Source: an uncultured Sangeribacter sp. (GTDB taxonomy: Bacteria; Bacteroidota; Bacteroidia; Bacteroidales; Muribaculaceae). From it: DNA of 64,000 nt. The position numbers and the translations under genes were made by a program. The notes under the pieces are model-generated. The model saw only the letters and a program-made list of their open reading frames with translations. It had not been told where the DNA came from and searched no databases. The DNA is taken from contig CAYZQA010000002.1 in NCBI GenBank assembly GCA_964480745.1, positions 2,744 to 66,743 of the forward strand. The letters run 5' to 3'. Shown piece by piece: positions 1-63,612 of this stretch (position 1 is its first letter; every line of letters starts with the position of its first letter).

Positions 1-498
1 AGCTTTGACGAACTACAAGGAGATGTGTTCAATTTTCTTCTGAGAAAGAGAGCCGAAGTATGGCCAATTGGGAATAAGGATAGGGAGGCAATCTGGCAAA
101 TCAGGCTCGATCCCCCCGCTTATTCCAACAGCTATCTTCACGACGCCGCCGAGCACATATTGTCTCAACTGGACAAATTTTCTCCTTGGTTGACGCATGA
201 TAATCCGGAAATTGTAGCCAATGCCTTGTTGATATTGTGTGTTAGGGAAAACAGAATGCTTCAGAGCCAACTCGAATCTCAGTTGCAGCTTTTTCGTAAA
301 AGTGGGGGCTTTACGGAGAATATGACAGCCGAAAGGCTGGAAGCCCGCAGAGAAAGAGCTTCTAATGAGGGCGCCCCGAGCTGCCCGGTTTGTGGCAAAC
401 CGATGTTGAAAAGGATGCAACGGAAGGGAGAGAACCAGGGACGCGAGTTCTGGGGCTGCAGCGATTACCCGCGTTGCAACGGGACGAGGAGGATTTAA
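1..498 (+). CDS. four-helix-bundle protein with C-terminal topoisomerase-type C4 zinc ribbon (5' end cut by window edge)
   Basis: Frame is open from nt 1 (track start at 25 is an internal GTG). C-terminus CPVCGKPM..FWGCSDYPRCNGT fits the topoisomerase-type zinc-ribbon pattern. Helical N-part resembles four-helix-bundle/23S-IVS-like proteins. Confidence 0.55.
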   Translation, partial: SFDELQGDVFNFLLRKRAEVWPIGNKDREAIWQIRLDPPAYSNSYLHDAAEHILSQLDKFSPWLTHDNPEIVANALLILCVRENRMLQSQLESQLQLFRKSGGFTENMTAERLEARRERASNEGAPSCPVCGKPMLKRMQRKGENQGREFWGCSDYPRCNGTRRI

Positions 499-504
499 TT
501 GGGG

Positions 505-663
505 GATTTTATCGAGATTTATCAGGATTAATCAGGATTAATCTTGATTTATCGGGATTAATCTTGATTTATCTTGATTAATCTTGATTAATCGGGATTT
601 ATCAGGCTTAATCTTGATTTATCGGGATTTATCAGGCTTAATCTTGAATTATCGGGATTATCC
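505..663. repeat. tandem array, about 16 units of 10 bp (ATC-NN-GATT-W; palindromic core GATTAATC)
   Basis: Fifteen units sit in exact 10-bp register at 511-660, with partial units at both ends. A 30-bp super-unit is duplicated (601-630 and 631-660). Confidence 0.95.
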
Positions 664-678
664 AAATAATTTTTCGTT

Positions 679-1674
679 ATGGTTTCAGTTATCGTTGTGA
701 CATATAATCAGGAGGGGACGATCGCCCGGACCCTCGATTCCATCCTTTCGCAGAAGTTTGACGGACCGTTCGAGATCGTTGTCGGCGACGATTGTTCGTC
801 CGACCGGACTTCCGATATTTGTCGCGATTATGCGGCCCGTTTTCCGAAGATTATCCGCTATTTCCGGCGCGACAGGAATCTCGGCGTGGTCAGGAATTAT
901 TTCCAGTGCCTCGCCGATTGCCGAGGTAAGTTTGTGGCCGATTGCGCGGGGGATGATTTCTGGGTGGACCGCTACAAGCTGAAGAAGCAGCGTGATCTTC
1001 TCCTTTCCAATCCCGCCATTTCGATTGTCCACACCGCCTGGAACAGTTGCGCACCCGACGGCAGCAACCCTCAGCCCGGCTTGTCGCGCGATGTGCGCGC
1101 CCGAATACCGGCCATCTCCCTCAAGGGCACGTCGGTCGGCGCTATCCTCGGCCGGAAGCCGGAGGCGACGATCCATCTTTGCTCGGCGATGTACCGCAAG
1201 TCGCTCATCGACCGGGAGATCGAAGATCATCCCGAGCTATTTGTCTCAGACGATTATTCATGCGAGGATCTCCAGATCATCGTGGCCATGGCAGCTCGTG
1301 GGTCTGTGGCCTACCTGCCGGAGGTGACGCTCTACTATAGCGTCGCGCCCGATTCGGTCTCGCATCAGACGGATTTCCGGAAAAAATACCGGCAGGTACG
1401 GGGGAATCTGATCCTCACCGAGCGGCTTCGCCAGCATTTCGGCATTGACCCGGCGGTCGTGGCGGACTATTATTCCCGGACGGCTGATTATCTTGAGGCG
1501 CAGGTATTTCATGCCGGGGATGAGGCATTGCTTGCCGATAGCCGGGAACTGATCGCCTCCTTGCCGATTGAGGGGAAACGGTCGCGAAAGGGTGCGCTCC
1601 GCCGCAGCCTGATGGGGAACCCCGCGCTCTGGAAGCTTTCGCGCCGCCTGTTCGGCAAGAAAGAGAGTCGATAA
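679..1674 (+). CDS. glycosyltransferase family 2
   Basis: N-terminal VIVVTYNQ..SILSQ..VGDDCSSD is the GT-A/DxD signature. Confidence 0.85.
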   Translation: MVSVIVVTYNQEGTIARTLDSILSQKFDGPFEIVVGDDCSSDRTSDICRDYAARFPKIIRYFRRDRNLGVVRNYFQCLADCRGKFVADCAGDDFWVDRYKLKKQRDLLLSNPAISIVHTAWNSCAPDGSNPQPGLSRDVRARIPAISLKGTSVGAILGRKPEATIHLCSAMYRKSLIDREIEDHPELFVSDDYSCEDLQIIVAMAARGSVAYLPEVTLYYSVAPDSVSHQTDFRKKYRQVRGNLILTERLRQHFGIDPAVVADYYSRTADYLEAQVFHAGDEALLADSRELIASLPIEGKRSRKGALRRSLMGNPALWKLSRRLFGKKESR

Positions 1675-1695
1675 GGCAGGGCGGCTGGTAAAACA

Positions 1696-1717
1696 GGGAC
1701 GCGATGTATCGCGTCCC
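1696..1717. repeat. REP-like palindrome GGGACGCGAT-GT-ATCGCGTCCC
   Basis: 10-bp perfect arms located 22 nt after the GT2 stop. Same element as at 63528-63547 and 63573-63592. Confidence 0.85.
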
Positions 1718-1869
1718 TACTCTGGCTGGAATGTCTTTGTGGTTGTTTCGCGGGGATGGATTTGCAATAATCGGCGGGATGTGCTATTTTTGTGGTTTAA
1801 TTGGGATGGGAGCGCGCCGGTCGATACGGCGGTTACCCTCACTCCCTCCACATTCCCGAAGATTAGCCG

Positions 1870-16606: not shown

Positions 16607-17659
16607 ATGAAACTGTCGCAATTCAAATTTAAATTGCCTGAAGAACGCATCGCGCAGTATCCCTCGGAAAACCGCGATGAATGCCGGCTGATGGTGGTCA
16701 ATGCGAAGACCGGAGAGATCAGCCACCATATTTTCAAGGATATTATCAACTTCTTCGATGAAGGGGATGTCATGGTGTTCAACGACACATGTGTGTTCCC
16801 CGCGCGCCTTTATGGCAATAAGGAGAAGACTGGCGCATGCATTGAGGTGTTCCTGCTTCGGGAGCTCAATGAGGAAAACCGTCTTTGGGATGTCCTCGTA
16901 GAGCCTGCCCGCAAGATCAGGATTGGCAACAAGCTCTATTTCGGGGAGGATGATTCGCTCGTGGCCGAGGTCATTGACAATACGACTTCGCGCGGACGGA
17001 CACTCCGTTTCCTCTTTGACGGGGAGCACGACGAGTTCAAGGAGGCGCTGTATGCCCTTGGGGAGACGCCGCTTCCGGAGTATATCAAGCGTAAGCCGAA
17101 CGAGACCGACAAGGAACGATATCAGTGTATCTTCGCCTCGAAAGAGGGGGCTGTGATGGCTCCTGCGGCCGGAACCCATTTCAGCCGTGAACTTATGAAG
17201 CGTCTTGAGATTAAGGGGGTCGAATGCGGCTTCCTGACTCTCCATTCCGGACGTGGAAATTTCAAGGAGATTGATGTCGAGGATCTTACGAAACACCGTA
17301 TGGATTCCGAAGAGATGTATGTCTCGACGGAGTTGGTAGAGATGGTCAATACGGCCAAGGATGCCGGCAAGCAGGTTTGCGCGGTCGGTACGTCTGTCCT
17401 CCGCGGTATGGCTCAGGCAGTCTGCATGAATGGCCATATCATGGAGTTTGAAGGCTGGACGAATAAGTTTATCTTCCCTCCCTATGTGTTCACGGTATGC
17501 AATGCGATGGTGTCCAACTTCCATTTGCCTTATTCCACCATGTTGATGATGGTTGCGGCTTTCGGAGGCTACGAGACGGTGATGAAGGCTTATGAAATCG
17601 CGGTCAAGGAGAAATATAATTTCGGGGCGTATGGCGATGCAATGCTGATCCTTCGCTGA
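16607..17659 (+). CDS. queA: S-adenosylmethionine:tRNA ribosyltransferase-isomerase
   Basis: Full-length QueA-like sequence. Confidence 0.95.
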
Positions 17660-18245: not shown

Positions 18246-18315
18246 AAAAATAAAAAGATTAATTGTCTCCCGACAATTAATCCTCTAACCTTAAATCTAA
18301 TACCATGAAAAACAC
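18246..18315 (-). ncRNA. candidate small RNA, family copy A (~70 nt)
   Basis: A TAATTTTG box lies 6 nt before the core GTTTTTCATGGTATTAGATTTAAGGTTA. A perfect 11-bp hairpin (18257-18282) is followed by TTTTTATTTTT. No ORF. Ends are approximate. Confidence 0.55.
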
Positions 18316-18319
18316 GTGG

Positions 18320-18327
18320 CAAAATTA
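18320..18327 (-). promoter_or_regulatory. Bacteroidota -7 box TAATTTTG (sRNA copy A)
   Basis: Exact TAnnTTTG, 6 nt upstream of the conserved core. Confidence 0.55.
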
Positions 18328-23614: not shown

Positions 23615-24205
23615 TCAGATATTGTCCTGCTCGCGCATGAAATGCTGATAAGGATGGTAGCAAGCGGGGCACTTCTGTGGGGGCTCTGTGCCTTCGAAAA
23701 TGTAACCGCAAACGAGGCACTGCCACTTGATCGGTGTGTCGCTCTTCCAGACTGTGCCGTTCTCGATTCTCCAGCGCATCTTGTCGAAACGCTCCTTATG
23801 GTGGTTCTCAATGGTTGCGATAGCCTCGAAACGGTCGGCGATTTCGTCAAACCCTTCTTCGCGGGCAACTGCGGCAGAAGCCTTATACTGCTCCACGCCC
23901 TCGCGTTCCTCTTCGGAAGCAGCAACAGCCAGATTGTCGGCAGTTGAGCCGATAACGCCTGCATCAACTCCTAATGGAACTGTGTTGCAACCGCCCTCTT
24001 TGAGGTATTTCAAAAATATCTTTGCGTGATGAAGCTCATTGTCAGCAGTTTCTGCGAAAATGTTGGCATATTGGTAATACTGCTCTTTCTGTGCTGCCTG
24101 AGAGAAGAATGTGTAACGCGTGACGGCTGCGGATTCTGCCATGTAAGCATTGGCGAGATTCACTTGCGTGCGGGTGCCGACGAGGCTCTTTGCTGGGGTG
24201 TCCAT
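23615..24205 (-). CDS. rbr: rubrerythrin
   Basis: Ferritin-like diiron domain plus C-terminal rubredoxin CLVCGY..CPAC. Confidence 0.9.
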   Translation of the reverse strand: MDTPAKSLVGTRTQVNLANAYMAESAAVTRYTFFSQAAQKEQYYQYANIFAETADNELHHAKIFLKYLKEGGCNTVPLGVDAGVIGSTADNLAVAASEEEREGVEQYKASAAVAREEGFDEIADRFEAIATIENHHKERFDKMRWRIENGTVWKSDTPIKWQCLVCGYIFEGTEPPQKCPACYHPYQHFMREQDNI

Positions 24206-24331
24206 AGTATTTGTTTTTATATTTAGTTTCGATATGTCCTGATAGCCTCGGCAGCGGAATACGTTTCTTCTCTGCTTCAGCTTTCGATGTTATAACACTG
24301 TCTCTATTGATTTGGTTTGAGGGGGAGTATG

Positions 24332-24405
24332 AAATAAAAAGTCTATCCCTTTTCACAAAGAGATAGACCGAAACCTTAATCTTAATTTAATACTATGAAA
24401 AACAC
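24332..24405 (-). ncRNA. candidate small RNA, family copy B (~74 nt)
   Basis: A TAACTTTG box lies 6 nt before the core GTTTTTCATAGTATTAAATT..TAAGGTT. A 12-bp hairpin (24341-24368) of unrelated sequence is followed by TTTTTATTT. Confidence 0.5.
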
Positions 24406-24409
24406 ATTG

Positions 24410-24417
24410 CAAAGTTA
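24410..24417 (-). promoter_or_regulatory. -7 box TAACTTTG (sRNA copy B)
   Basis: Exact TAnnTTTG, 6 nt upstream of the conserved core. Confidence 0.55.
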
Positions 24418-44043: not shown

Positions 44044-44198
44044 GAACCTCTGTCTGATATCTGCAAAGTAATTAACTAACATTAACATTAGGCTTGACAA
44101 ATTGTTTTATTTCGTTATGTCTTATTCCTTAAATATTAATAATCGTTAAATGAAAGAGAAATTTATATGTTTTATAACATTGTTTTAAAAAATATCCC

Positions 44199-44206
44199 TA
44201 CCTTTG
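44199..44206 (+). promoter_or_regulatory. -7 box TACCTTTG (sRNA copy C)
   Basis: Exact TAnnTTTG, 6 nt upstream of the conserved core. Confidence 0.55.
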
Positions 44207-44210
44207 CATC

Positions 44211-44281
44211 GAGTTTTTCATGGTATTAGATTTTAAGGTTAACGCAAGATTGGTTGTCGGGATGACAATCAATTTTTTTTT
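44211..44281 (+). ncRNA. candidate small RNA, family copy C (~70 nt)
   Basis: A TACCTTTG box lies 6 nt before the core GTTTTTCATGGTATTAGATTTTAAGGTTA. Hairpin 44249-44273 is followed by T9. Confidence 0.55.
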
Positions 44282-44352
44282 GCGCGTACGTTTCCGCTCA
44301 TTGCCAATGAGTCCTCCCGACCTCTATATTTTCATATTTCCCTGTTTTTGAT

Positions 44353-44419: not shown

Positions 44420-45307
44420 ATGAAAACCAACATTCTTGACATTGTCAGGCTTCTGCGCCCGGCCCAATGGGTGAAGAATCTATTTGTGTTTCTGCCGGCG
44501 ATTTTCGGCGGGGGCATTCTCAACGGCCATGTCATGGTCGCCGCCCTTGAGAGTTTCCTTATTTTCTCAATCGTGGCTTCCTCTATATATGTCATCAATG
44601 ACCTCCATGACCTGGAGGCCGACCGGGCTCATCCCGAGAAGCGCAGACGTCCGATTGCATCGGGCCGTGTCCCCAAAGGGGGCGCCATCGTGTTGGCCCT
44701 CCTCCTCTGCGTCGGTTGGTTCGCCCTGAATTTTGTTTTCTTTGGACTCAACCCGGCAATATGGGCCATTGTCCTCGGGTATTTCCTGATGAACATTGCC
44801 TATACGTTCGGTCTGAAGCAAGTGGCGATTGTCGATGTCTTCATTATCGCGGCCGGCTTTGTCCTGCGTGTCCTCATGGGTGGCGTCGCCTGTGGGATTT
44901 GGGTTTCTCCCTGGCTGATAATGATGGTGATGCTTCTGACGCTTCTCATCGCTTTCGGGAAGCGGCGCGACGATGTGCTGCTGATGGAGGAGGGCGACAA
45001 AGCCCCCAGAAAGTCCGTGACAGGTTATAATATCCCTTTCGTCAATCAGGTCTTGTCCATGCTGTCGGCAACAACCATCGTCGCCTATATCTGCTATACG
45101 CTCAGTCCGGCTGTCGAGGCGCGTTTCGGTTCCCGCTTCGTCTATCTGACGAGTGTTTTCGTGATTGCCGGGTTGCTCCGGTATCTTCAGATTGCAACGG
45201 TGATGCAGAAAAGTGGGCGACCGACACAGATTGTCTACGGCGACCGCTTCATCCGGATATGTGGCCTTCTCTGGCTCGCCTCTTTCTTCGTCATTATATA
45301 TTGCTGA
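44420..45307 (+). CDS. UbiA-family prenyl-phosphate phosphoribosyltransferase-like protein
   Basis: LRPAQWVKNL N-terminus, NDLHDLEADR Asp-rich motif and multiple TM helices. Confidence 0.8.
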   Translation: MKTNILDIVRLLRPAQWVKNLFVFLPAIFGGGILNGHVMVAALESFLIFSIVASSIYVINDLHDLEADRAHPEKRRRPIASGRVPKGGAIVLALLLCVGWFALNFVFFGLNPAIWAIVLGYFLMNIAYTFGLKQVAIVDVFIIAAGFVLRVLMGGVACGIWVSPWLIMMVMLLTLLIAFGKRRDDVLLMEEGDKAPRKSVTGYNIPFVNQVLSMLSATTIVAYICYTLSPAVEARFGSRFVYLTSVFVIAGLLRYLQIATVMQKSGRPTQIVYGDRFIRICGLLWLASFFVIIYC

Positions 45308-52000: not shown

Positions 52001-52054
52001 AATCCGGATTTATCCGCTATTATGTTTCATTAACATTCTCTCCTCCCTTAACCA

Positions 52055-52480
52055 ATGACTATCAACGAAACCCAAGACGAAATAATTGAGGAATTCGAGG
52101 GTCTGACCGACTGGATGGACCGCTATGCCTATATCATCGATCTCGGTAACACGCTCCCGGAGTTCCCCGAGGCCGAGAAAACGCCAGCCAACCTTATCGA
52201 AGGTTGCCAGAGCCGCGTCTGGATCGATGCCCGCCGCGAAGAGAGCGGCAAAATCGATTTCCGCGCCGATTCCGACGCGCTTATCGTGAAAGGCATAGTG
52301 GCCTTGCTGATGAGGGTCCTCAATGACCATACCCCGCGCGAGATCCTTGACGCCGACCTTTATTTCATCGACCGTATCGGCCTGTCGGAACATCTTTCCC
52401 CGACGCGAAGCAATGGCCTCGTGGCTATGGTCAAGCAGATCCGCGACTACGCCCGCGCCTACGATCTTCTCGACAAGTAG
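52055..52480 (+). CDS. sufE: SufE-family sulfur acceptor
   Basis: EGCQSRVW active-site Cys context. Confidence 0.85.
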   Translation: MTINETQDEIIEEFEGLTDWMDRYAYIIDLGNTLPEFPEAEKTPANLIEGCQSRVWIDARREESGKIDFRADSDALIVKGIVALLMRVLNDHTPREILDADLYFIDRIGLSEHLSPTRSNGLVAMVKQIRDYARAYDLLDK

Positions 52481-52579
52481 CCGGTCGGCAATTAACCGGC
52501 GACTGGCCCTCCTCTCCTTCTCATTCTCTCCTCCTCCTTCTCCCGTAATAAACTTTTCTAACCTTAAATTAATCCATTT

Positions 52580-54124
52580 ATGTTTGCCAATCAGCCAAAA
52601 GGCCTGATTCCTGCCGCCCTCTCCAATATGGGCGAACGGTTCGGCTATTACATCATGAACGCTGTGCTCGTTCTCTTCCTTTGCTCCAAGTTCGGGCTCT
52701 CGGAGGAGACAAGCACGCTCGTCTATTCTTTCTTCTACGCCGGCATCTATGTGCTGAGCCTCGTCGGCGGTCTGATCGCCGACAAGACCCAGAACTACAA
52801 GGGGACGATCATCTGGGGTCTCGTCATCATGACCTTGGGTTATGTCGTCCTGGCGTTCCCCATCCTCGCCACCCATGAGAACACGGCGTGGCTCCTGACG
52901 CTGACCTGCGTCGCGCTGTTCTTCATCGCTTTCGGTAACGGTCTGTTCAAGGGTAACCTCCAGGCTATTGTCGGTCAGCTTTACGACAATCCGAAGTATG
53001 CCGCCCAGCGCGATTCCGGTTTCCAGATTTTCTATGTCTTCATTAATATCGGCGGTCTTATCGCCCCGTTTGTTGCTCCGATGCTTCGTAGCTGGTGGCT
53101 CGGTGTCAATGGCATGACCTATGATGCCTCTTTCCCCGCGATGGCCCATCAGGTGCTGAGCGTGACCGACAGCATGAGCCTTGAGAATATCAACCAGTTC
53201 TACGCGCTGGTTAGCGCGCATGCAGCCGAGGTCGGTGCCCACGGTCTGCAGAACATGCAGGATCTTCAGGCTTTCTGTACGGAGTATCTGAAAGTGTTCA
53301 ACACCGGTATCCATTATTCCTTCATCGCCTCCGTGGCGGCAATGCTTATCTCCCTCTGCATTTTCATCATCACGAAGAAGGGTCTTCCGACGCCCGCGAA
53401 GAAGGAGAAGCAGGAAACTCTTTCCTATACTCCCGAGGAGAAGGCAGCCATGGCCAAGGAGATCAAGCAGCGCATGTATGCGCTCTTCGCCGTTTTGGGA
53501 ATCGCGATTTTCTTCTGGTTCTCGTTCCATCAGAACGGTACGTCGATGTCCCTCTTTGCGCGTGACTTCGTCGATACGTCGACGATTGCTCCCGAGATCT
53601 GGCAGTCGGTCAATCCTTTCTTTGTCATTGTGCTGACGCCGATCATCATGTTGATTTTCTCGTCGCTTTCCCGCAGGGGGAAGGAGATTTCGACTCCCCG
53701 CAAGATTGGACTCGGTATGGGAATTGCCGGTCTGGGATATCTGTTCCTGACGCTCTATTCGCTCTTCATGGGTTATCCCTCCGGTACGGAGTTCCGCGCG
53801 ATGATCACGGCCGGTGAACATGTTGTCAAATCGGGCCCCTGGGTGTTGATTCTCTACTATTTCTTCATGACGGTTGCTGAGTTGTTCATCTCTCCGCTCG
53901 GTCTTTCATTCGTTTCCAAGGTAGCTCCGAAGCATCTTCAGGGTCTTTGCCAGGGTCTCTGGCTGGGCGCAACTGCAATCGGTAACCTGCTGCTTTGGAT
54001 CGGTCCGTTGATCTACAACGCCTGCCCGATCTGGGTCGCATGGGCCGTATTCCTTGGCGTCTGCGTCATCTCAATGGGCGTCATGTTCGGCATGGTCAAC
54101 TGGCTCGAACGCGTCACCAAGTAA
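52580..54124 (+). CDS. proton-dependent oligopeptide transporter (POT/PTR2, MFS)
   Basis: GGLIADKTQNYKGT PTR2 signature and many TM helices. Confidence 0.85.
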   Translation: MFANQPKGLIPAALSNMGERFGYYIMNAVLVLFLCSKFGLSEETSTLVYSFFYAGIYVLSLVGGLIADKTQNYKGTIIWGLVIMTLGYVVLAFPILATHENTAWLLTLTCVALFFIAFGNGLFKGNLQAIVGQLYDNPKYAAQRDSGFQIFYVFINIGGLIAPFVAPMLRSWWLGVNGMTYDASFPAMAHQVLSVTDSMSLENINQFYALVSAHAAEVGAHGLQNMQDLQAFCTEYLKVFNTGIHYSFIASVAAMLISLCIFIITKKGLPTPAKKEKQETLSYTPEEKAAMAKEIKQRMYALFAVLGIAIFFWFSFHQNGTSMSLFARDFVDTSTIAPEIWQSVNPFFVIVLTPIIMLIFSSLSRRGKEISTPRKIGLGMGIAGLGYLFLTLYSLFMGYPSGTEFRAMITAGEHVVKSGPWVLILYYFFMTVAELFISPLGLSFVSKVAPKHLQGLCQGLWLGATAIGNLLLWIGPLIYNACPIWVAWAVFLGVCVISMGVMFGMVNWLERVTK

Positions 54125-54482: not shown

Positions 54483-55376
54483 ATGAGAACGGACTTTAAG
54501 TTTATTACGACGACATTGAAAAGGATGATGATTTTTGCGTTCATGCTTACCCCGGTAGTCGCGTTTAGTCAGAATTGTTTCGTAGACGGGACTGAATGGA
54601 AGGTAGAGGGATGTGGGACTGAATCCCCTTATCCCAATTATTGGCATTGTAATATAAAGCAGGTATTTGATGCTGAGTCAGGATTTTCTGCCTTTATTGT
54701 GGAAGATGTCGAGGAAGGGTCTATCCAACATGGGGTATATGTAAAAACTGAAGGCGATCAAGTCTTTTTTAAAAAGACCCTTTCTTCAGAATGGTTGCTA
54801 ATGTATGATTTTTCCCTTTCACCCGGAGATGTGGTGACGGTTTACCAGCCAGACTATGCAGATTCAGAAGGGTTGCCGAGGCCGGCTTATCTGAAATGTA
54901 CCGGTGTCTCGGAAAGTGAGGAGTACGAAGGCCTCATCGCTATGGAGTTGGAAGAATATTCCGATGATTCTTACGAAGCAAATTTAGATGCGGAGCCGGA
55001 GAGATTCAAGCTTGGAAGTGGTACATGGTTGAAAGGTGTAGGATCAACCCAAGGAGTGCTATGGAACGCTGGTTTTGGTATGTGTGGATGGGGGTCCCGA
55101 TTAATGGATGTGCTTTTTAACGGAGAAATCCTATACAGTTTTTATCTTTCAGATGTAAGCTGCGTTAGAAATGATACGAACATCCAAGTATCTACAAATG
55201 GATTAAATCTCATCGTTACTACCCCCGACCGGAATGCTACTGTGACTGTACATTCCATTTCAGGTGCGACCATAGCATCATCTATAACTGGAGGACGCAA
55301 GGAGATACCTGTTTCCTATCCTGGAATTTATTTGGTAAATGTTAACGGTCAGACCCAGAAGGTAGCCGTTCGATAA
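54483..55376 (+). CDS. secreted protein with T9SS type-A C-terminal sorting domain
   Basis: Signal peptide plus a beta-rich C-terminal ~80 aa ending GIYLVNVNGQTQKVAV. Confidence 0.6.
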   Translation: MRTDFKFITTTLKRMMIFAFMLTPVVAFSQNCFVDGTEWKVEGCGTESPYPNYWHCNIKQVFDAESGFSAFIVEDVEEGSIQHGVYVKTEGDQVFFKKTLSSEWLLMYDFSLSPGDVVTVYQPDYADSEGLPRPAYLKCTGVSESEEYEGLIAMELEEYSDDSYEANLDAEPERFKLGSGTWLKGVGSTQGVLWNAGFGMCGWGSRLMDVLFNGEILYSFYLSDVSCVRNDTNIQVSTNGLNLIVTTPDRNATVTVHSISGATIASSITGGRKEIPVSYPGIYLVNVNGQTQKVAVR

Positions 55377-55446: not shown

Positions 55447-55497
55447 AAGATCTATTTCTAATCTCTGTTAATGGCGGTGGGACTGATGAGTATGTGC

Positions 55498-55568
55498 ATA
55501 AAAAAATTGATTGTCATCCCGACAACCAATCTTGCGTTAACCTTAAAATCTAATACCATGAAAAACTC
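55498..55568 (-). ncRNA. candidate small RNA, family copy D (~70 nt), near-identical to C
   Basis: This is the reverse complement of copy C (one substitution in the upstream part, T7 instead of T9). Hairpin at 55506-55530. Confidence 0.55.
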
Positions 55569-55572
55569 GATG

Positions 55573-55580
55573 CAAAGGTA
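55573..55580 (-). promoter_or_regulatory. -7 box TACCTTTG (sRNA copy D)
   Basis: Exact TAnnTTTG, 6 nt upstream of the conserved core. Confidence 0.55.
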
Positions 55581-55745
55581 GGGATATTTTTTAAAACAAT
55601 GTTATATAACATATAAAATCTCTTCAAATTAAAGATTATTTAACCTTGTATCACCAATTAATTTGATTAGATTAATCTTTATTAACAATTTTAAGAATTA
55701 CGACCGATTTTAATAAGGAATTTTTGAAATATCGGGGATGTTTCA

Positions 55746-62502: not shown

Positions 62503-63522
62503 ATGCAACGTAGAAGAATCCTCTTCCGCGCTGACGCGGGCCCGAAGACTGGCTATGGACATTTTGTCCGTAGCTGCGCTCTTGCCGGCTATCTGCGCCA
62601 TTATTGTGAAGAGCATGGTGAATCCCTCGATCTGCTTTTCGCCTCCCGAGGGGACTCTCCCGGCCAAACGCTAACCCCATTTCAGCAATCCTCGCTCCTC
62701 GAAGTGGGCGCCAGCTTTATCCCTCTGGTTAGCAATGACGACTTCTTGCGCCTTCTCCTTCCTGAAGACATCGTTGTTCTTGACAATTATTATTTCACCA
62801 AGGCGTATCAAAGGGCGGTGAAGTCTCGATGCGCCGCTCTTGTCTGTCTACATGATATGCCGGGCCATGAGTTTGATTGCGATGTGGTAATTTCCGGTAC
62901 GCCGCTTCCCCGTCATTCTTACTCCATGCCTGCGGATGCCCTTTATTTTTCAGGGTTGCAATACTTTCCGTTGCGCGCTCCTTTTTTTGCGCCCGCTGCT
63001 CCCACAGCCTTACGTAATGACGAGGACTCCCCGATTGTCCTTGCCATGGGTGGGGCAGACCCCCTCCAGCTTGCCCGACGCCTTGCCCCGGCTGTCCTTG
63101 AGGCTTTCCCGGAGAGTCCGTTGGTGATAATAGGCGGCAAAAAGGAGGATTATGCCGATGAGAGGACCACTGTGCTGACGGGCCTCACTGCCTCTGAGAT
63201 GGTGGCCTTGTTCGACCGGTCAAAGCTCGGAATTTTCCCGGCCAGCACAGTGTGTATCGAGGCCTTGTCGCGCAGGCTACCGATCCTGGCGGGACGTTTC
63301 ACGGATAATCAGGACTATCTCTACGATTATCTTCATAAAGAGGGGTATGCCGGCCCATTGGGTGATCTCAGTGACCTTTCCGCGCAGGCTGAGGACAATA
63401 AAGAAGTGGCTGCCGGCCTTATTCGCCATGCAGCCACACAAACGTTTTCAAAATCCGGTCCAAAAATCAATTTCCAAAAGGCCCGTTCAGAACTCGCCTC
63501 AGGCATTCTCTCCCTTATTTAG
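62503..63522 (+). CDS. pseG: UDP-2,4-diacetamido-2,4,6-trideoxy-beta-L-altropyranose hydrolase
   Basis: N-terminal RILFRADAGPKTGYGH pattern and position in the pse cluster. Confidence 0.7.
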   Translation: MQRRRILFRADAGPKTGYGHFVRSCALAGYLRHYCEEHGESLDLLFASRGDSPGQTLTPFQQSSLLEVGASFIPLVSNDDFLRLLLPEDIVVLDNYYFTKAYQRAVKSRCAALVCLHDMPGHEFDCDVVISGTPLPRHSYSMPADALYFSGLQYFPLRAPFFAPAAPTALRNDEDSPIVLAMGGADPLQLARRLAPAVLEAFPESPLVIIGGKKEDYADERTTVLTGLTASEMVALFDRSKLGIFPASTVCIEALSRRLPILAGRFTDNQDYLYDYLHKEGYAGPLGDLSDLSAQAEDNKEVAAGLIRHAATQTFSKSGPKINFQKARSELASGILSLI

Positions 63523-63612
63523 TTTGTGGACGCGATTTATCGCGTCCCTACTAAGAGCGTGGGGTAGTTTGAGGACGCGATTTATCGCGTCCCTGCTAAG
63601 AGCGTAGGGTAA
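63523..63612. repeat. two tandem 45-bp units, each carrying the REP-like palindrome GGACGCGAT-TT-ATCGCGTCC
   Basis: Units 63523-63567 and 63568-63612 differ at a few positions. They lie between convergent pseG and the CD225 gene, and the second unit covers the CD225 stop. Confidence 0.9.

What the first reader, a model, noticed from the sequence alone, without database searches (positions are those of the whole stretch)
18246..18327. Four-copy family of ~70-nt promoter-to-terminator modules with a conserved 5' core (candidate sRNA family)
Four intergenic loci share one architecture: A 18246-18327 (-), B 24332-24417 (-), C 44199-44281 (+) and D 55498-55580 (-). Each has an exact Bacteroidota -7 box (TAATTTTG, TAACTTTG, TACCTTTG, TACCTTTG). 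Exactly 6 nt later comes a conserved core GTTTTTCAT(G/A)GTATTA(G/A)ATT...TAAGGTT. Each then has a strong hairpin followed by a T-run (T5AT5, T5AT3, T9, T7). Copies A, C and D have related stems (TTGTCGGGA.GACAA). Copy B has an unrelated stem sequence at the same position, which argues for selection on structure rather than on the DNA repeat itself. No ORF fits on the transcribed strand. The single-stranded 5' core contains UUUUUCAU, the complement of the AUGAAAAA start context common in Bacteroidota secreted and lipoprotein genes, so it could act as an anti-start-codon seed. I do not recognise this core as a named Rfam or Bacteroides sRNA family, but I cannot search.
Basis: partly seen in the sequence, partly recalled or inferred. 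Interest (0 to 1): 0.75.

Follow-up and report, generated by a model that had tools for sequence, protein, structure and literature searches.

The report
Four FopS small-RNA genes (known family)

Summary
All four loci exist exactly as described. Each has a TAnnTTTG -7 box, then 6 nt, then the core GTTTTTCAT(G/A)GTATTA(G/A)AT, then a strong hairpin and a T-run.

Rfam 15 assigns A, C and D to RF04319, the FopS "family of paralogous sRNAs", with 67.8-76.9 bits against a gathering score of 56. Copy B scores 43 bits. It belongs to a divergent sister group with a 5-nt insertion after the seed.

FopS was characterised in Bacteroides thetaiotaomicron (PMC11697453). Its single-stranded 5' seed pairs at the start codon of susC/PUL mRNAs and blocks translation, and the protein RbpB counteracts this.

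A scan of 120 Bacteroidales loci shows the same architecture in 121 of 130 copies, and the terminator stem covaries. The window comes from an uncultured Muribaculaceae-like genome, outside the Bacteroidaceae range given in the paper.

One side result may be new. A palindrome matching the published Cur/BT4338 operator consensus lies upstream of C and D. It also lies upstream of 53 of 130 family copies, against 8 of 419 control promoter-like regions.

Verdict: real, well supported, and a known kind. Interest is modest.

The parts
18246..18327 (-). Copy A: complete fopS gene module. The -7 box TAATTTTG is at 18320-18327, the sRNA at 18249-18315, the seed at 18295-18315, the terminator hairpin at about 18253-18286, and the T5AT5 run follows.
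   Evidence: RF04319 scores 67.8 bits against a gathering score of 56. The fold is -16.6 kcal/mol, z -4.4, with an unpaired 5' end. The -7 box ends 6 nt before the core. A 64-nt sequence identical to copy A occurs in Muribaculaceae MAG locus L096.
24331..24417 (-). Copy B: divergent FopS-like gene. The -7 box TAACTTTG is at 24410-24417, the sRNA at 24331-24405, the hairpin at about 24340-24369, and the T5AT3 run follows. The seed has A12 and A19, and a 5-nt UAAGA insertion follows position 21.
   Evidence: RF04319 scores 43.1 bits, below the gathering score of 56 (E 0.0054). GibS matches only over the 5' R1 region, at 34.6 bits against 115. The fold is -17.3 kcal/mol, z -3.4. An ortholog lies beside DUF2851 in L010. 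Seven of eight sister copies also fall below the gathering score.
44199..44282 (+). Copy C: complete fopS gene module. The -7 box TACCTTTG is at 44199-44206, the sRNA at 44211-44282, the hairpin at about 44246-44276, and a T9 run follows.
   Evidence: RF04319 scores 76.7 bits. The fold is given. It forms a 128-nt inverted duplicate with D.
55497..55580 (-). Copy D: complete fopS gene module. The -7 box TACCTTTG is at 55573-55580, the sRNA at 55497-55568, the hairpin at about 55503-55533, and a T7 run follows.
   Evidence: RF04319 scores 76.9 bits. The fold is given. It is 97% complementary to the C module over 128 nt.
44167..44180 (.). Palindrome ATGTTTTATAACAT. It starts 46 nt upstream of the core of copy C and is centred about -38.5 from the inferred TSS. 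It matches the published Cur/BT4338 operator consensus TATGTTnTAnAACATA.
   Evidence: It is one of only two exact ATGTTN4AACAT sites in the 64-kb window, against 0.04 expected. Its enrichment across the family is shown. The consensus is quoted in PMC6989115.
55599..55612 (.). Palindrome ATGTTATATAACAT, at the same position upstream of copy D.

Best explanation
The four loci are independent genes of the FopS family of trans-acting small RNAs. A, C and D are canonical members. B belongs to a divergent sister group.

Each gene has a housekeeping Bacteroidota promoter of the sigma-ABfr type, with TAnnTTTG at -13 to -6. Each is transcribed into an RNA of about 65-75 nt that ends at an intrinsic terminator.

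The first 21 or so nucleotides (GUGUUUUUCAUGGUAUUAGAU, seed R1/R1') stay single-stranded. [quoted passage not shown] This blocks ribosome binding. In B. thetaiotaomicron the targets are the first genes of polysaccharide-utilisation operons, mostly susC. An RRM-1 protein, RbpB, binds the sRNA and relieves the repression.

- **Shown here:** family membership, promoter, seed, terminator, stem covariation and the wide distribution across Bacteroidales.
- **Inferred by homology from B. thetaiotaomicron experiments:** actual transcription, the targets, and the role of RbpB in this organism.
For: - **Rfam.** RF04319 hits above the gathering score for A, C and D, and a full-length sub-threshold hit for B.
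- **Seed.** In A it is identical to the Rfam consensus over positions 1-21, and C and D differ at 1 nt (alignments).
- **Fold.** The 5' end is unpaired and there is a single terminator hairpin.
- **Architecture across the family.** Among 130 copies from 120 Bacteroidales loci plus the window, 121 have a -7 box 4-8 nt upstream of the core (99 at exactly 6 nt). 121 have a terminator that gives a 60-79-nt RNA.
- **Promoter profile.** The -33 TTG and -7 TAnnTTTG elements appear at canonical spacing.
- **Stem covariation.** 85.5% of cells are paired against 38-57% for slid partners, 12 of 12 pairs show double changes, and 0 of 500 shuffles reach the observed score.
- **Published mechanism.** Inline probing, EMSA with compensatory mutants, in-vitro translation and RbpB antagonism for B. 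thetaiotaomicron FopS-10 (PMC11697453).
Against: - There are no expression data for this organism.
- The window holds no susC-size gene and no RRM-motif protein, so neither a target nor the partner protein could be shown here.
- A duplex scan of all ATG starts in the window found nothing beyond background. The best hit was -20.4 kcal/mol, and the background 1st percentile is -19.4.
- Copy B fails the Rfam gathering score and differs in the extended seed. The B. thetaiotaomicron paper links this region to target specificity, so B may have other targets.
- The published range of FopS is Bacteroidaceae. Function in Muribaculaceae is an extrapolation.
Confidence: 0.88

Rival explanations
1. Some copies act in cis, as 5' leaders or attenuators of the gene downstream on the same strand. 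Copy B would serve the rubrerythrin gene at 23615-24205, and copy C the UbiA prenyltransferase gene at 44420-45307. The short RNA would then be a premature-termination product.
For: B ends 125 nt upstream of the rubrerythrin ATG, and no TAnnTTTG box lies between them. C lies 138 nt upstream of a gene on the same strand. One of the 14 B. thetaiotaomicron FopS RNAs is processed from an mRNA 3' UTR, so the family is not strictly free-standing.
Against: A and D face convergent genes, QueA at 16607-17659 (+) and ORF 54483-55376 (+), so they cannot be leaders. Neighbouring genes are not conserved across the family: tblastn with the window's flanking proteins hits only 4 of 120 loci. The invariant part is the 5' seed, not a sensor domain. 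The terminators are strong and no alternative antiterminator fold is predicted.
Confidence: 0.08
2. The copies are a dispersed mobile or phage-borne DNA repeat (MITE- or REP-like) that happens to look like a promoter plus terminator and has no RNA function.
For: The family is multicopy. C and D are a near-identical 128-nt inverted pair. Related copies occur in three phage records, and the FopS paper suggests phages spread the genes.
Against: No terminal inverted repeats or target-site duplications are present. Similarity between A, B and C/D stops at the promoter and the terminator. The 11.2 kb between C and D holds housekeeping genes: UbiA, HAD, peptidase C69, an AMP-binding enzyme, Fe-ADH, HIT and GreA. 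The conservation pattern follows a transcript, with invariant promoter boxes and seed and a covarying stem. B. thetaiotaomicron homologues are detected on Northern blots.
Confidence: 0.03
3. The loci encode a very short peptide that starts at the AUG inside the core.
For: Copy A has a 9-codon ORF that starts at the core AUG (read).
Against: B has AUA instead of AUG, as do 52 of 130 family copies. A 1-nt indel shifts the frame in C and D, so the ORF runs through the terminator. The authors of the FopS paper excluded sORFs.
Confidence: 0.01

Closest known systems
FopS sRNA family (Rfam RF04319 BTncRNA_FopS; 14 paralogues in Bacteroides thetaiotaomicron; PMC11697453)
   Same: The same 5' seed (GUGUUUUUCAUgGUAUUAGAU), the same one-hairpin architecture, the same length of 65-72 nt, the same sigma-ABfr promoter type, and multicopy. 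A, C and D pass the Rfam gathering score.
   Different: The host is an uncultured Muribaculaceae-like bacterium, whereas the paper reports conservation within Bacteroidaceae. Four copies lie within 37 kb of housekeeping DNA. Copy B and its sister copies carry a 5-nt insertion and fall below the Rfam threshold.
GibS sRNA (Rfam RF04182; B. thetaiotaomicron)
   Same: It shares the R1 seed. Copy B has the GibS-like variants CAUAGUA and AAGAUUAA (alignment).
   Different: GibS is about 142 nt, has a second seed R2, and uses a non-canonical PM2 promoter. The window copies score 34-35 bits against a gathering score of 115. They lack the 47-nt middle part and have canonical -7 boxes.
DonS-type cis-encoded PUL sRNAs of Bacteroides fragilis
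   Same: They are also small RNAs that repress polysaccharide-utilisation loci in Bacteroides (mentioned).
   Different: DonS-type RNAs are encoded divergently or antisense to the PUL they control. The window copies sit between housekeeping genes, and the window holds no susC-size ORF.
Multicopy seed-sharing sRNAs of Proteobacteria (OmrA/OmrB, Qrr1-5)
   Same: Paralogous short RNAs with a conserved 5' seed, variable terminators, and repression of outer-membrane protein mRNAs at the ribosome-binding site (general knowledge; the FopS paper draws the same comparison).
   Different: There is no sequence relation. Those RNAs depend on Hfq, whereas here the partner is an RRM-1 protein that antagonises the RNA rather than assisting it.

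Membership tests
FopS (RF04319) | Score at or above Rfam's gathering score (56 bits) over the full model: copies A, C and D | tested here: met
   67.8, 76.7 and 76.9 bits, model positions 1-71 of 71.
FopS (RF04319) | Score at or above Rfam's gathering score: copy B | tested here: not met
   43.1 bits, E 0.0054, full-length alignment. Seven of eight sister copies in other genomes score 44-52 bits, and one Bacteroides copy scores 58.2. B is therefore filed as a FopS-like divergent subgroup and not as a canonical member.
FopS (RF04319) | Conserved, single-stranded 5' seed R1/R1' (positions 1-21) | tested here: met
   A matches the consensus at 21 of 21 positions, C and D at 20 of 21, and B at 19-20 of 21 (A19; A12 is a common family variant, found in 52 of 130 copies). 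The seed is unpaired in the MFE fold of A, C and D and in the centroid fold of B.
FopS (RF04319) | One Rho-independent terminator hairpin directly after the seed region, with a total length of about 65-70 nt | tested here: met
   Lengths are 67, 75, 72 and 72 nt. Hairpin energies are -13.3 to -17.3 kcal/mol, each followed by a T-run. The stem covaries across 100 distinct copies.
FopS (RF04319) | Own canonical sigma-ABfr promoter (TAnnTTTG -7 box) | tested here: met
   An exact TAnnTTTG ends 6 nt before the core in all four copies and in 99 of 130 family copies.
FopS (RF04319) | Expressed as discrete RNAs of about 65-70 nt, induced by bile salts | not testable with these tools
   No transcriptome of this organism is available. 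Its proteins were found only in two Logan metagenome assemblies.
FopS (RF04319) | Pairs at the start codon of susC or first-PUL-gene mRNAs and represses their translation | tested here: inconclusive
   The window has no susC-size ORF. No ATG start region in the window exceeds background. Across the 120 loci, one of the top 40 sites is the start of an ORF of at least 1091 aa, 140 nt downstream of a FopS copy (L110). The complete genome is needed.
FopS (RF04319) | Bound and antagonised by the RRM-1 protein RbpB | not testable with these tools
   No RNP1 or RNP2 motif occurs in any frame of the window. The rest of the genome is not available.
GibS (RF04182) | RNA of about 142 nt with both R1 and R2 seeds, scoring at least 115 bits | tested here: not met
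   34.6 bits for B and 33.8 bits for D. Only R1 and the terminator align, and the 47-nt middle part is absent.
DonS-type cis-antisense PUL sRNA | Encoded divergently or antisense to the susC gene of the PUL it controls | tested here: not met
   The neighbours are RecO, QueA, rubrerythrin, DUF2851, TraB/GumN and UbiA, plus two proteins without Pfam hits. The longest ORF in the window is 857 aa.
Mobile repeat (MITE/REP) | Terminal inverted repeats, target-site duplications, and similarity that extends beyond a transcript | tested here: not met
   Similarity is confined to the promoter plus the RNA, 128 nt for C and D and 48 nt for A against the others. The flanks are housekeeping genes.

The most novel reading that the evidence does not exclude
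FopS genes may be direct targets of the carbohydrate-utilisation master regulator Cur (BT4338, CRP family) across much of the Bacteroidales. In this window that would apply to C and D but not to A or B.

**The site.** A palindrome matching the published Cur consensus wwwTATGTTnTAnAACATAwww (PMC6989115) lies upstream of 53 of 130 sampled copies. The consensus of these FopS-associated sites is AATTATGTTTTATAACATAAAA.

**Position.** The sites fall into three sharp classes, centred about -61.5, -38.5 and -30 from the inferred TSS.

**Controls.** Only 8 of 419 AT-rich control regions upstream of other -7 boxes carry the site (Fisher p = 3e-29). Of the 35 exact sites in 944 kb, 29 lie within 70 nt upstream of a FopS core. 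None was found at the copies in the 27 Prevotellaceae loci.

**Meaning if true.** Sugar sensing through Cur would be wired to translational repression of PUL transporters through FopS. The paralogues in one genome would also be regulated differently.

**Novelty.** The FopS paper names only an 'unknown transcriptional regulator' and does not mention BT4338 in this context. I found no paper in the library that links the two.
Probability: 0.5. Interest if true: 0.6.

Novelty: new member of a known kind. Interest (0 to 1): 0.3.

Why it matters
For annotation, these are four previously unannotated fopS genes in an uncultured Muribaculaceae-like genome. They show that a reader working from sequence alone can recover a real sRNA family and its mechanism.

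For biology, there are three modest additions.

1. **Range.** The FopS seed, promoter and terminator module is not confined to Bacteroidaceae.
2. **A sister subgroup.** A group with an insertion next to the seed, which includes copy B, mostly escapes the Rfam threshold.
3. **A candidate regulator.** Many fopS promoters, including C and D here, carry a site that matches the Cur/BT4338 consensus. This gives a testable candidate for the unidentified regulator of the family and a possible link between sugar sensing and translational control of glycan uptake.

Tried and rejected
- **Extra copies in the window.** The core pattern with up to 3 mismatches and Rfam at E <= 1 found only the four.
- **MAFFT plus RNAalifold on 50 copies.** This gave no consensus structure, because the stems were misaligned by 1-2 columns. 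I replaced it with a covariance model and a model-guided alignment. That alignment leans towards the structure, so I rely on the slid-partner control.
- **Target search inside the window.** The first script timed out. The second found no start region beyond background.
- **Seed-complement search over all 120 loci.** Most top sites were not gene starts, so enrichment for susC could not be judged.
- **Organism identification.** Exact protein look-up failed for a 741-aa protein. Two other proteins were found only in Logan assemblies of SRR13282573 and SRR13282574. The assignment to Muribaculaceae rests on 72-74% nucleotide identity to Muribaculaceae MAG loci.
- **RbpB-like RRM protein in the window.** None was found by RNP1/RNP2 motif search.
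- **Synteny of copy B's neighbours.** DUF2851 is adjacent only in L010, and rubrerythrin is not adjacent in any B-type locus.
- **Mapping the sRNAs near Cur ChIP peaks to FopS numbers.** BTnc140, BTnc195 and BTnc364 from PMC10294740 do not appear in the held supplements of the FopS paper.
- **Other weak Rfam hits.** MIR3444, CRISPR-DR57 and BTnc231 all score far below their gathering scores and were treated as chance.

Full report

Yes. Reading the four loci shows the same layout on the transcribed strand of each:
- an exact TAnnTTTG box: A TAATTTTG 18320-18327, B TAACTTTG 24410-24417, C TACCTTTG 44199-44206, D TACCTTTG 55573-55580;
- six nucleotides;
- the core GTTTTTCAT(G/A)GTATTA(G/A)AT;
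- a short A/U-rich linker containing UAAGGUU;
- a perfect hairpin of 13-15 bp;
- a T-run.

The 19-nt core occurs exactly four times in the window. No further site appears with up to three mismatches. Shuffles give 0.04 expected. The predicted folds leave the first 29-35 nt unpaired and give one terminator hairpin. Energies are -16.6 kcal/mol for A, -17.3 for B and -13.3 for C and D, with z-scores of -4.4, -3.4 and about -1.9.

C and D are a 128-nt inverted duplicate, 97% complementary, that covers the promoter region and the RNA and then stops. A and B share only the -7 box, the core and the general architecture with C and D.

**2. What is it?**

Rfam 15 assigns A (67.8 bits), C (76.7) and D (76.9) to RF04319, "Bacteroidetes FopS (family of paralogous sRNAs)". 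The gathering score is 56, and each match covers the full model. With relaxed thresholds B also aligns over the full model but reaches only 43.1 bits, E 0.0054. It also gives a weak GibS match confined to the shared 5' seed and the terminator.

The family was described and tested in Bacteroides thetaiotaomicron (Nat Commun 2025, PMC11697453):
- There are 14 paralogues of about 65-70 nt, driven by canonical sigma-ABfr promoters.
- They are detected on Northern blots and induced by bile salts.
- The RRM-1 protein RbpB binds them.
- FopS-10 blocks translation in vitro. Compensatory mutations restore the effect, and RbpB relieves it.

**3. Family-wide test of the architecture**

By record title these are:

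| Group | Loci |
|---|---|
| Prevotellaceae | about 27 |
| Bacteroidaceae | about 26 |
| Muribaculaceae | about 25 |
| Unassigned Bacteroidales | about 20 |
| Paludibacteraceae | 6 |
| "Porphyromonadaceae" MAGs | 5 |
| Dysgonomonadaceae | 4 |
| Parabacteroides | 1 |
| Massilibacteroides | 1 |
| Mislabelled bins | a few |

Among the 130 copies in these loci plus the window:
- 121 have a TAnnTTTG box 4-8 nt upstream of the core, 99 of them at exactly 6 nt;
- 121 have a hairpin and T-run that give a 60-79-nt RNA;
- three are GibS-length, 130-149 nt.

A position profile of 97 distinct upstream regions shows the -7 box, a TTG at the -33 position and an A-tract between them. That is the standard Bacteroidota promoter.

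A covariance model built from 50 copies re-found 105 copies and aligned them. On that alignment:
- all 12 stem pairs show changes on both sides;
- 85.5% of cells are standard pairs, against 38-57% when the 3' partners are slid by 1-3 columns;
- none of 500 shuffles reaches the observed covariation.

The alignment is model-guided and so leans towards the structure, but the slid control is clear. What is conserved in the 3' half is pairing, as expected for a terminator.

**4. Copy B**

MAFFT places B in a distinct group with L001, L007, L010, L013, L015, L074, L084, L101 and L118. The group carries a 5-nt insertion (UAAGA) directly after seed position 21 and has CAUAGUA instead of CAUGGUA. Seven of eight tested members score 44-52 bits on RF04319, below the gathering score. 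One Bacteroides copy reaches 58.2.

A12 is common in the family, in 52 of 130 copies, including a B. thetaiotaomicron copy. A19 is rare, in 3 of 130.

The B. thetaiotaomicron work attributes the different target range of GibS and FopS to mismatches in the 3' extension of the seed. I therefore infer that B has a partly different target set. This is inference only.

B's ortholog in Muribaculaceae MAG locus L010 is 96% identical and lies next to the same DUF2851 gene.

B ends 125 nt upstream of a rubrerythrin gene on the same strand, and no -7 box lies between them. A cis role through read-through cannot be excluded for this one copy.

**5. Surroundings**

The window has 52.7% G+C. Its closest relatives among the fetched loci are Muribaculaceae MAGs, with 72-74% nucleotide identity over coding genes. 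Two of its proteins occur only in Logan assemblies of two runs. The host is therefore an uncultured Muribaculaceae-like bacterium.

The neighbouring genes are housekeeping:
- RecO and QueA beside A;
- rubrerythrin and DUF2851 beside B;
- TraB/GumN and UbiA beside C;
- two proteins without Pfam hits beside D;
- between C and D: HAD, peptidase C69, an AMP-binding enzyme, Fe-ADH, HIT and GreA.

Nothing here indicates a mobile element, and there are no target-site duplications. The window has no susC-size ORF and no RRM-motif protein. Targets and partner protein must therefore lie elsewhere in the genome. An in-window duplex scan found nothing above background.

Related copies occur in three phage records, unannotated. 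This agrees with the paper's remark about a phage-borne copy.

**6. A side result that may be new**

C and D share a conserved upstream stretch that holds a 14-nt palindrome: ATGTTTTATAACAT at 44167-44180 and ATGTTATATAACAT at 55599-55612. These are the only two exact ATGTTN4AACAT sites in the window, against 0.04 expected.

Across the window plus the 120 loci:
- 29 of the 35 exact sites in 944 kb lie within 70 nt upstream of a FopS core.
- 53 of 130 copies have a site with at most one mismatch within 200 nt.
- Only 8 of 419 AT-rich control regions upstream of other TAnnTTTG boxes have one (Fisher p = 3e-29).
- The sites fall into sharp position classes that start at -69, -46 and -35 to -41 from the core. 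Their centres are about -61.5, -38.5 and -30 from the inferred TSS.
- Their extended consensus is AATTATGTTTTATAACATAAAA.

This matches the consensus quoted for the CRP-family master regulator BT4338/Cur, wwwTATGTTnTAnAACATAwww. The experimentally required Cur site in the fusA2 promoter, CCTTATGTTACATAACATTGTT, also matches (PMC6989115).

The FopS paper speaks of an unknown regulator and mentions Cur only in another context. Other papers note sRNAs near BT4338 ChIP peaks, but not FopS by name. I could not map those sRNAs to FopS numbers.

Caveats:
- Copies related by descent are not independent.
- The direction of regulation is unknown. The -61.5 and -38.5 positions resemble CRP class I and class II activation sites, while the -30 class would more likely occlude the promoter.
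- No site was found at the copies in the 27 Prevotellaceae loci, nor upstream of A or B.

**7. Verdict**

What is new here is limited to three things:
- four unannotated members in a family-level lineage outside the range stated in the paper;
- a divergent subgroup, which includes copy B, that mostly escapes the Rfam threshold;
- the Cur-box association, which is a lead and not a result.

Interest is 0.3. Novelty class: new member of a known kind.

Noticed in passing
window 44167-44180 and 55599-55612; also upstream of FopS copies in many loci (for example L002, L016, L035, L089, L098, L103 and L111): A palindrome matching the published Cur/BT4338 operator consensus (TATGTTnTAnAACATA) lies upstream of C and D. 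It also lies upstream of 53 of 130 family copies, in three fixed position classes, against 8 of 419 control promoter-like regions. It is absent from A and B and from the copies in all 27 Prevotellaceae loci.
   Followed up: partly
window 24206-24330 (- strand): Copy B's terminator is followed after 125 nt by a rubrerythrin gene on the same strand, and no TAnnTTTG -7 box lies between them. The gene may depend on read-through from B's promoter or on a non-canonical promoter.
   Followed up: partly
window 488-687: An array of about 20 head-to-tail 10-bp units (GATTWATCNN) lies directly upstream of the ORF at 679-1674. Its last unit reads TTATCCAAA, one mismatch from the E. coli DnaA-box consensus TTATCCACA (recalled from memory, not tested). 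It may be an iteron or a protein-binding array. The weak MIR3444 Rfam hit here is an artefact of the repeat.
   Followed up: no
window 1689-1733, 63520-63564 and 63565-63609: Three copies of a G+C-rich hairpin repeat (GGACGCGATNTATCGCGTCC followed by CTAC), two of them in tandem at the right end of the window. This looks like a REP-like intergenic element.
   Followed up: no
L110 4504-4570 and 4708-4737: In a 'Porphyromonadaceae' gut MAG, a FopS copy lies about 140 nt upstream of an ORF of at least 1091 aa (susC-size). The start region of that ORF (ACCUUAAAAAAAUACCGAUGAAAAAAACA) is complementary to the seed, at -20.1 kcal/mol. This may be an sRNA encoded next to its own target.
   Followed up: no
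phage records MT836368.1 8038-8121, PQ571285.1 (Bacteroides phage BX-TP2) 44800-44863, and MT836359.1 70-131: FopS-like modules occur in three phage records, unannotated. One is 91.8% identical to copy C over all 84 nt.
   Followed up: partly
window 18246-18327 compared with L096 5609-5680 and L052 1120-1230: A 64-nt RNA sequence identical to copy A occurs in a Muribaculaceae MAG next to a different gene, a homologue of window ORF 52010-53821. In L052 an A-like copy lies next to RecO but in the opposite orientation relative to it. The modules therefore move or invert relative to their neighbours.
   Followed up: partly
window 18249-44282 and 55497-55568: Four family copies lie within 37 kb of housekeeping DNA. 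B. thetaiotaomicron has 14 copies in its whole genome. Only about six of the 120 sampled 8-kb loci hold two or more copies. Whether this is a real cluster needs the complete genome.
   Followed up: no
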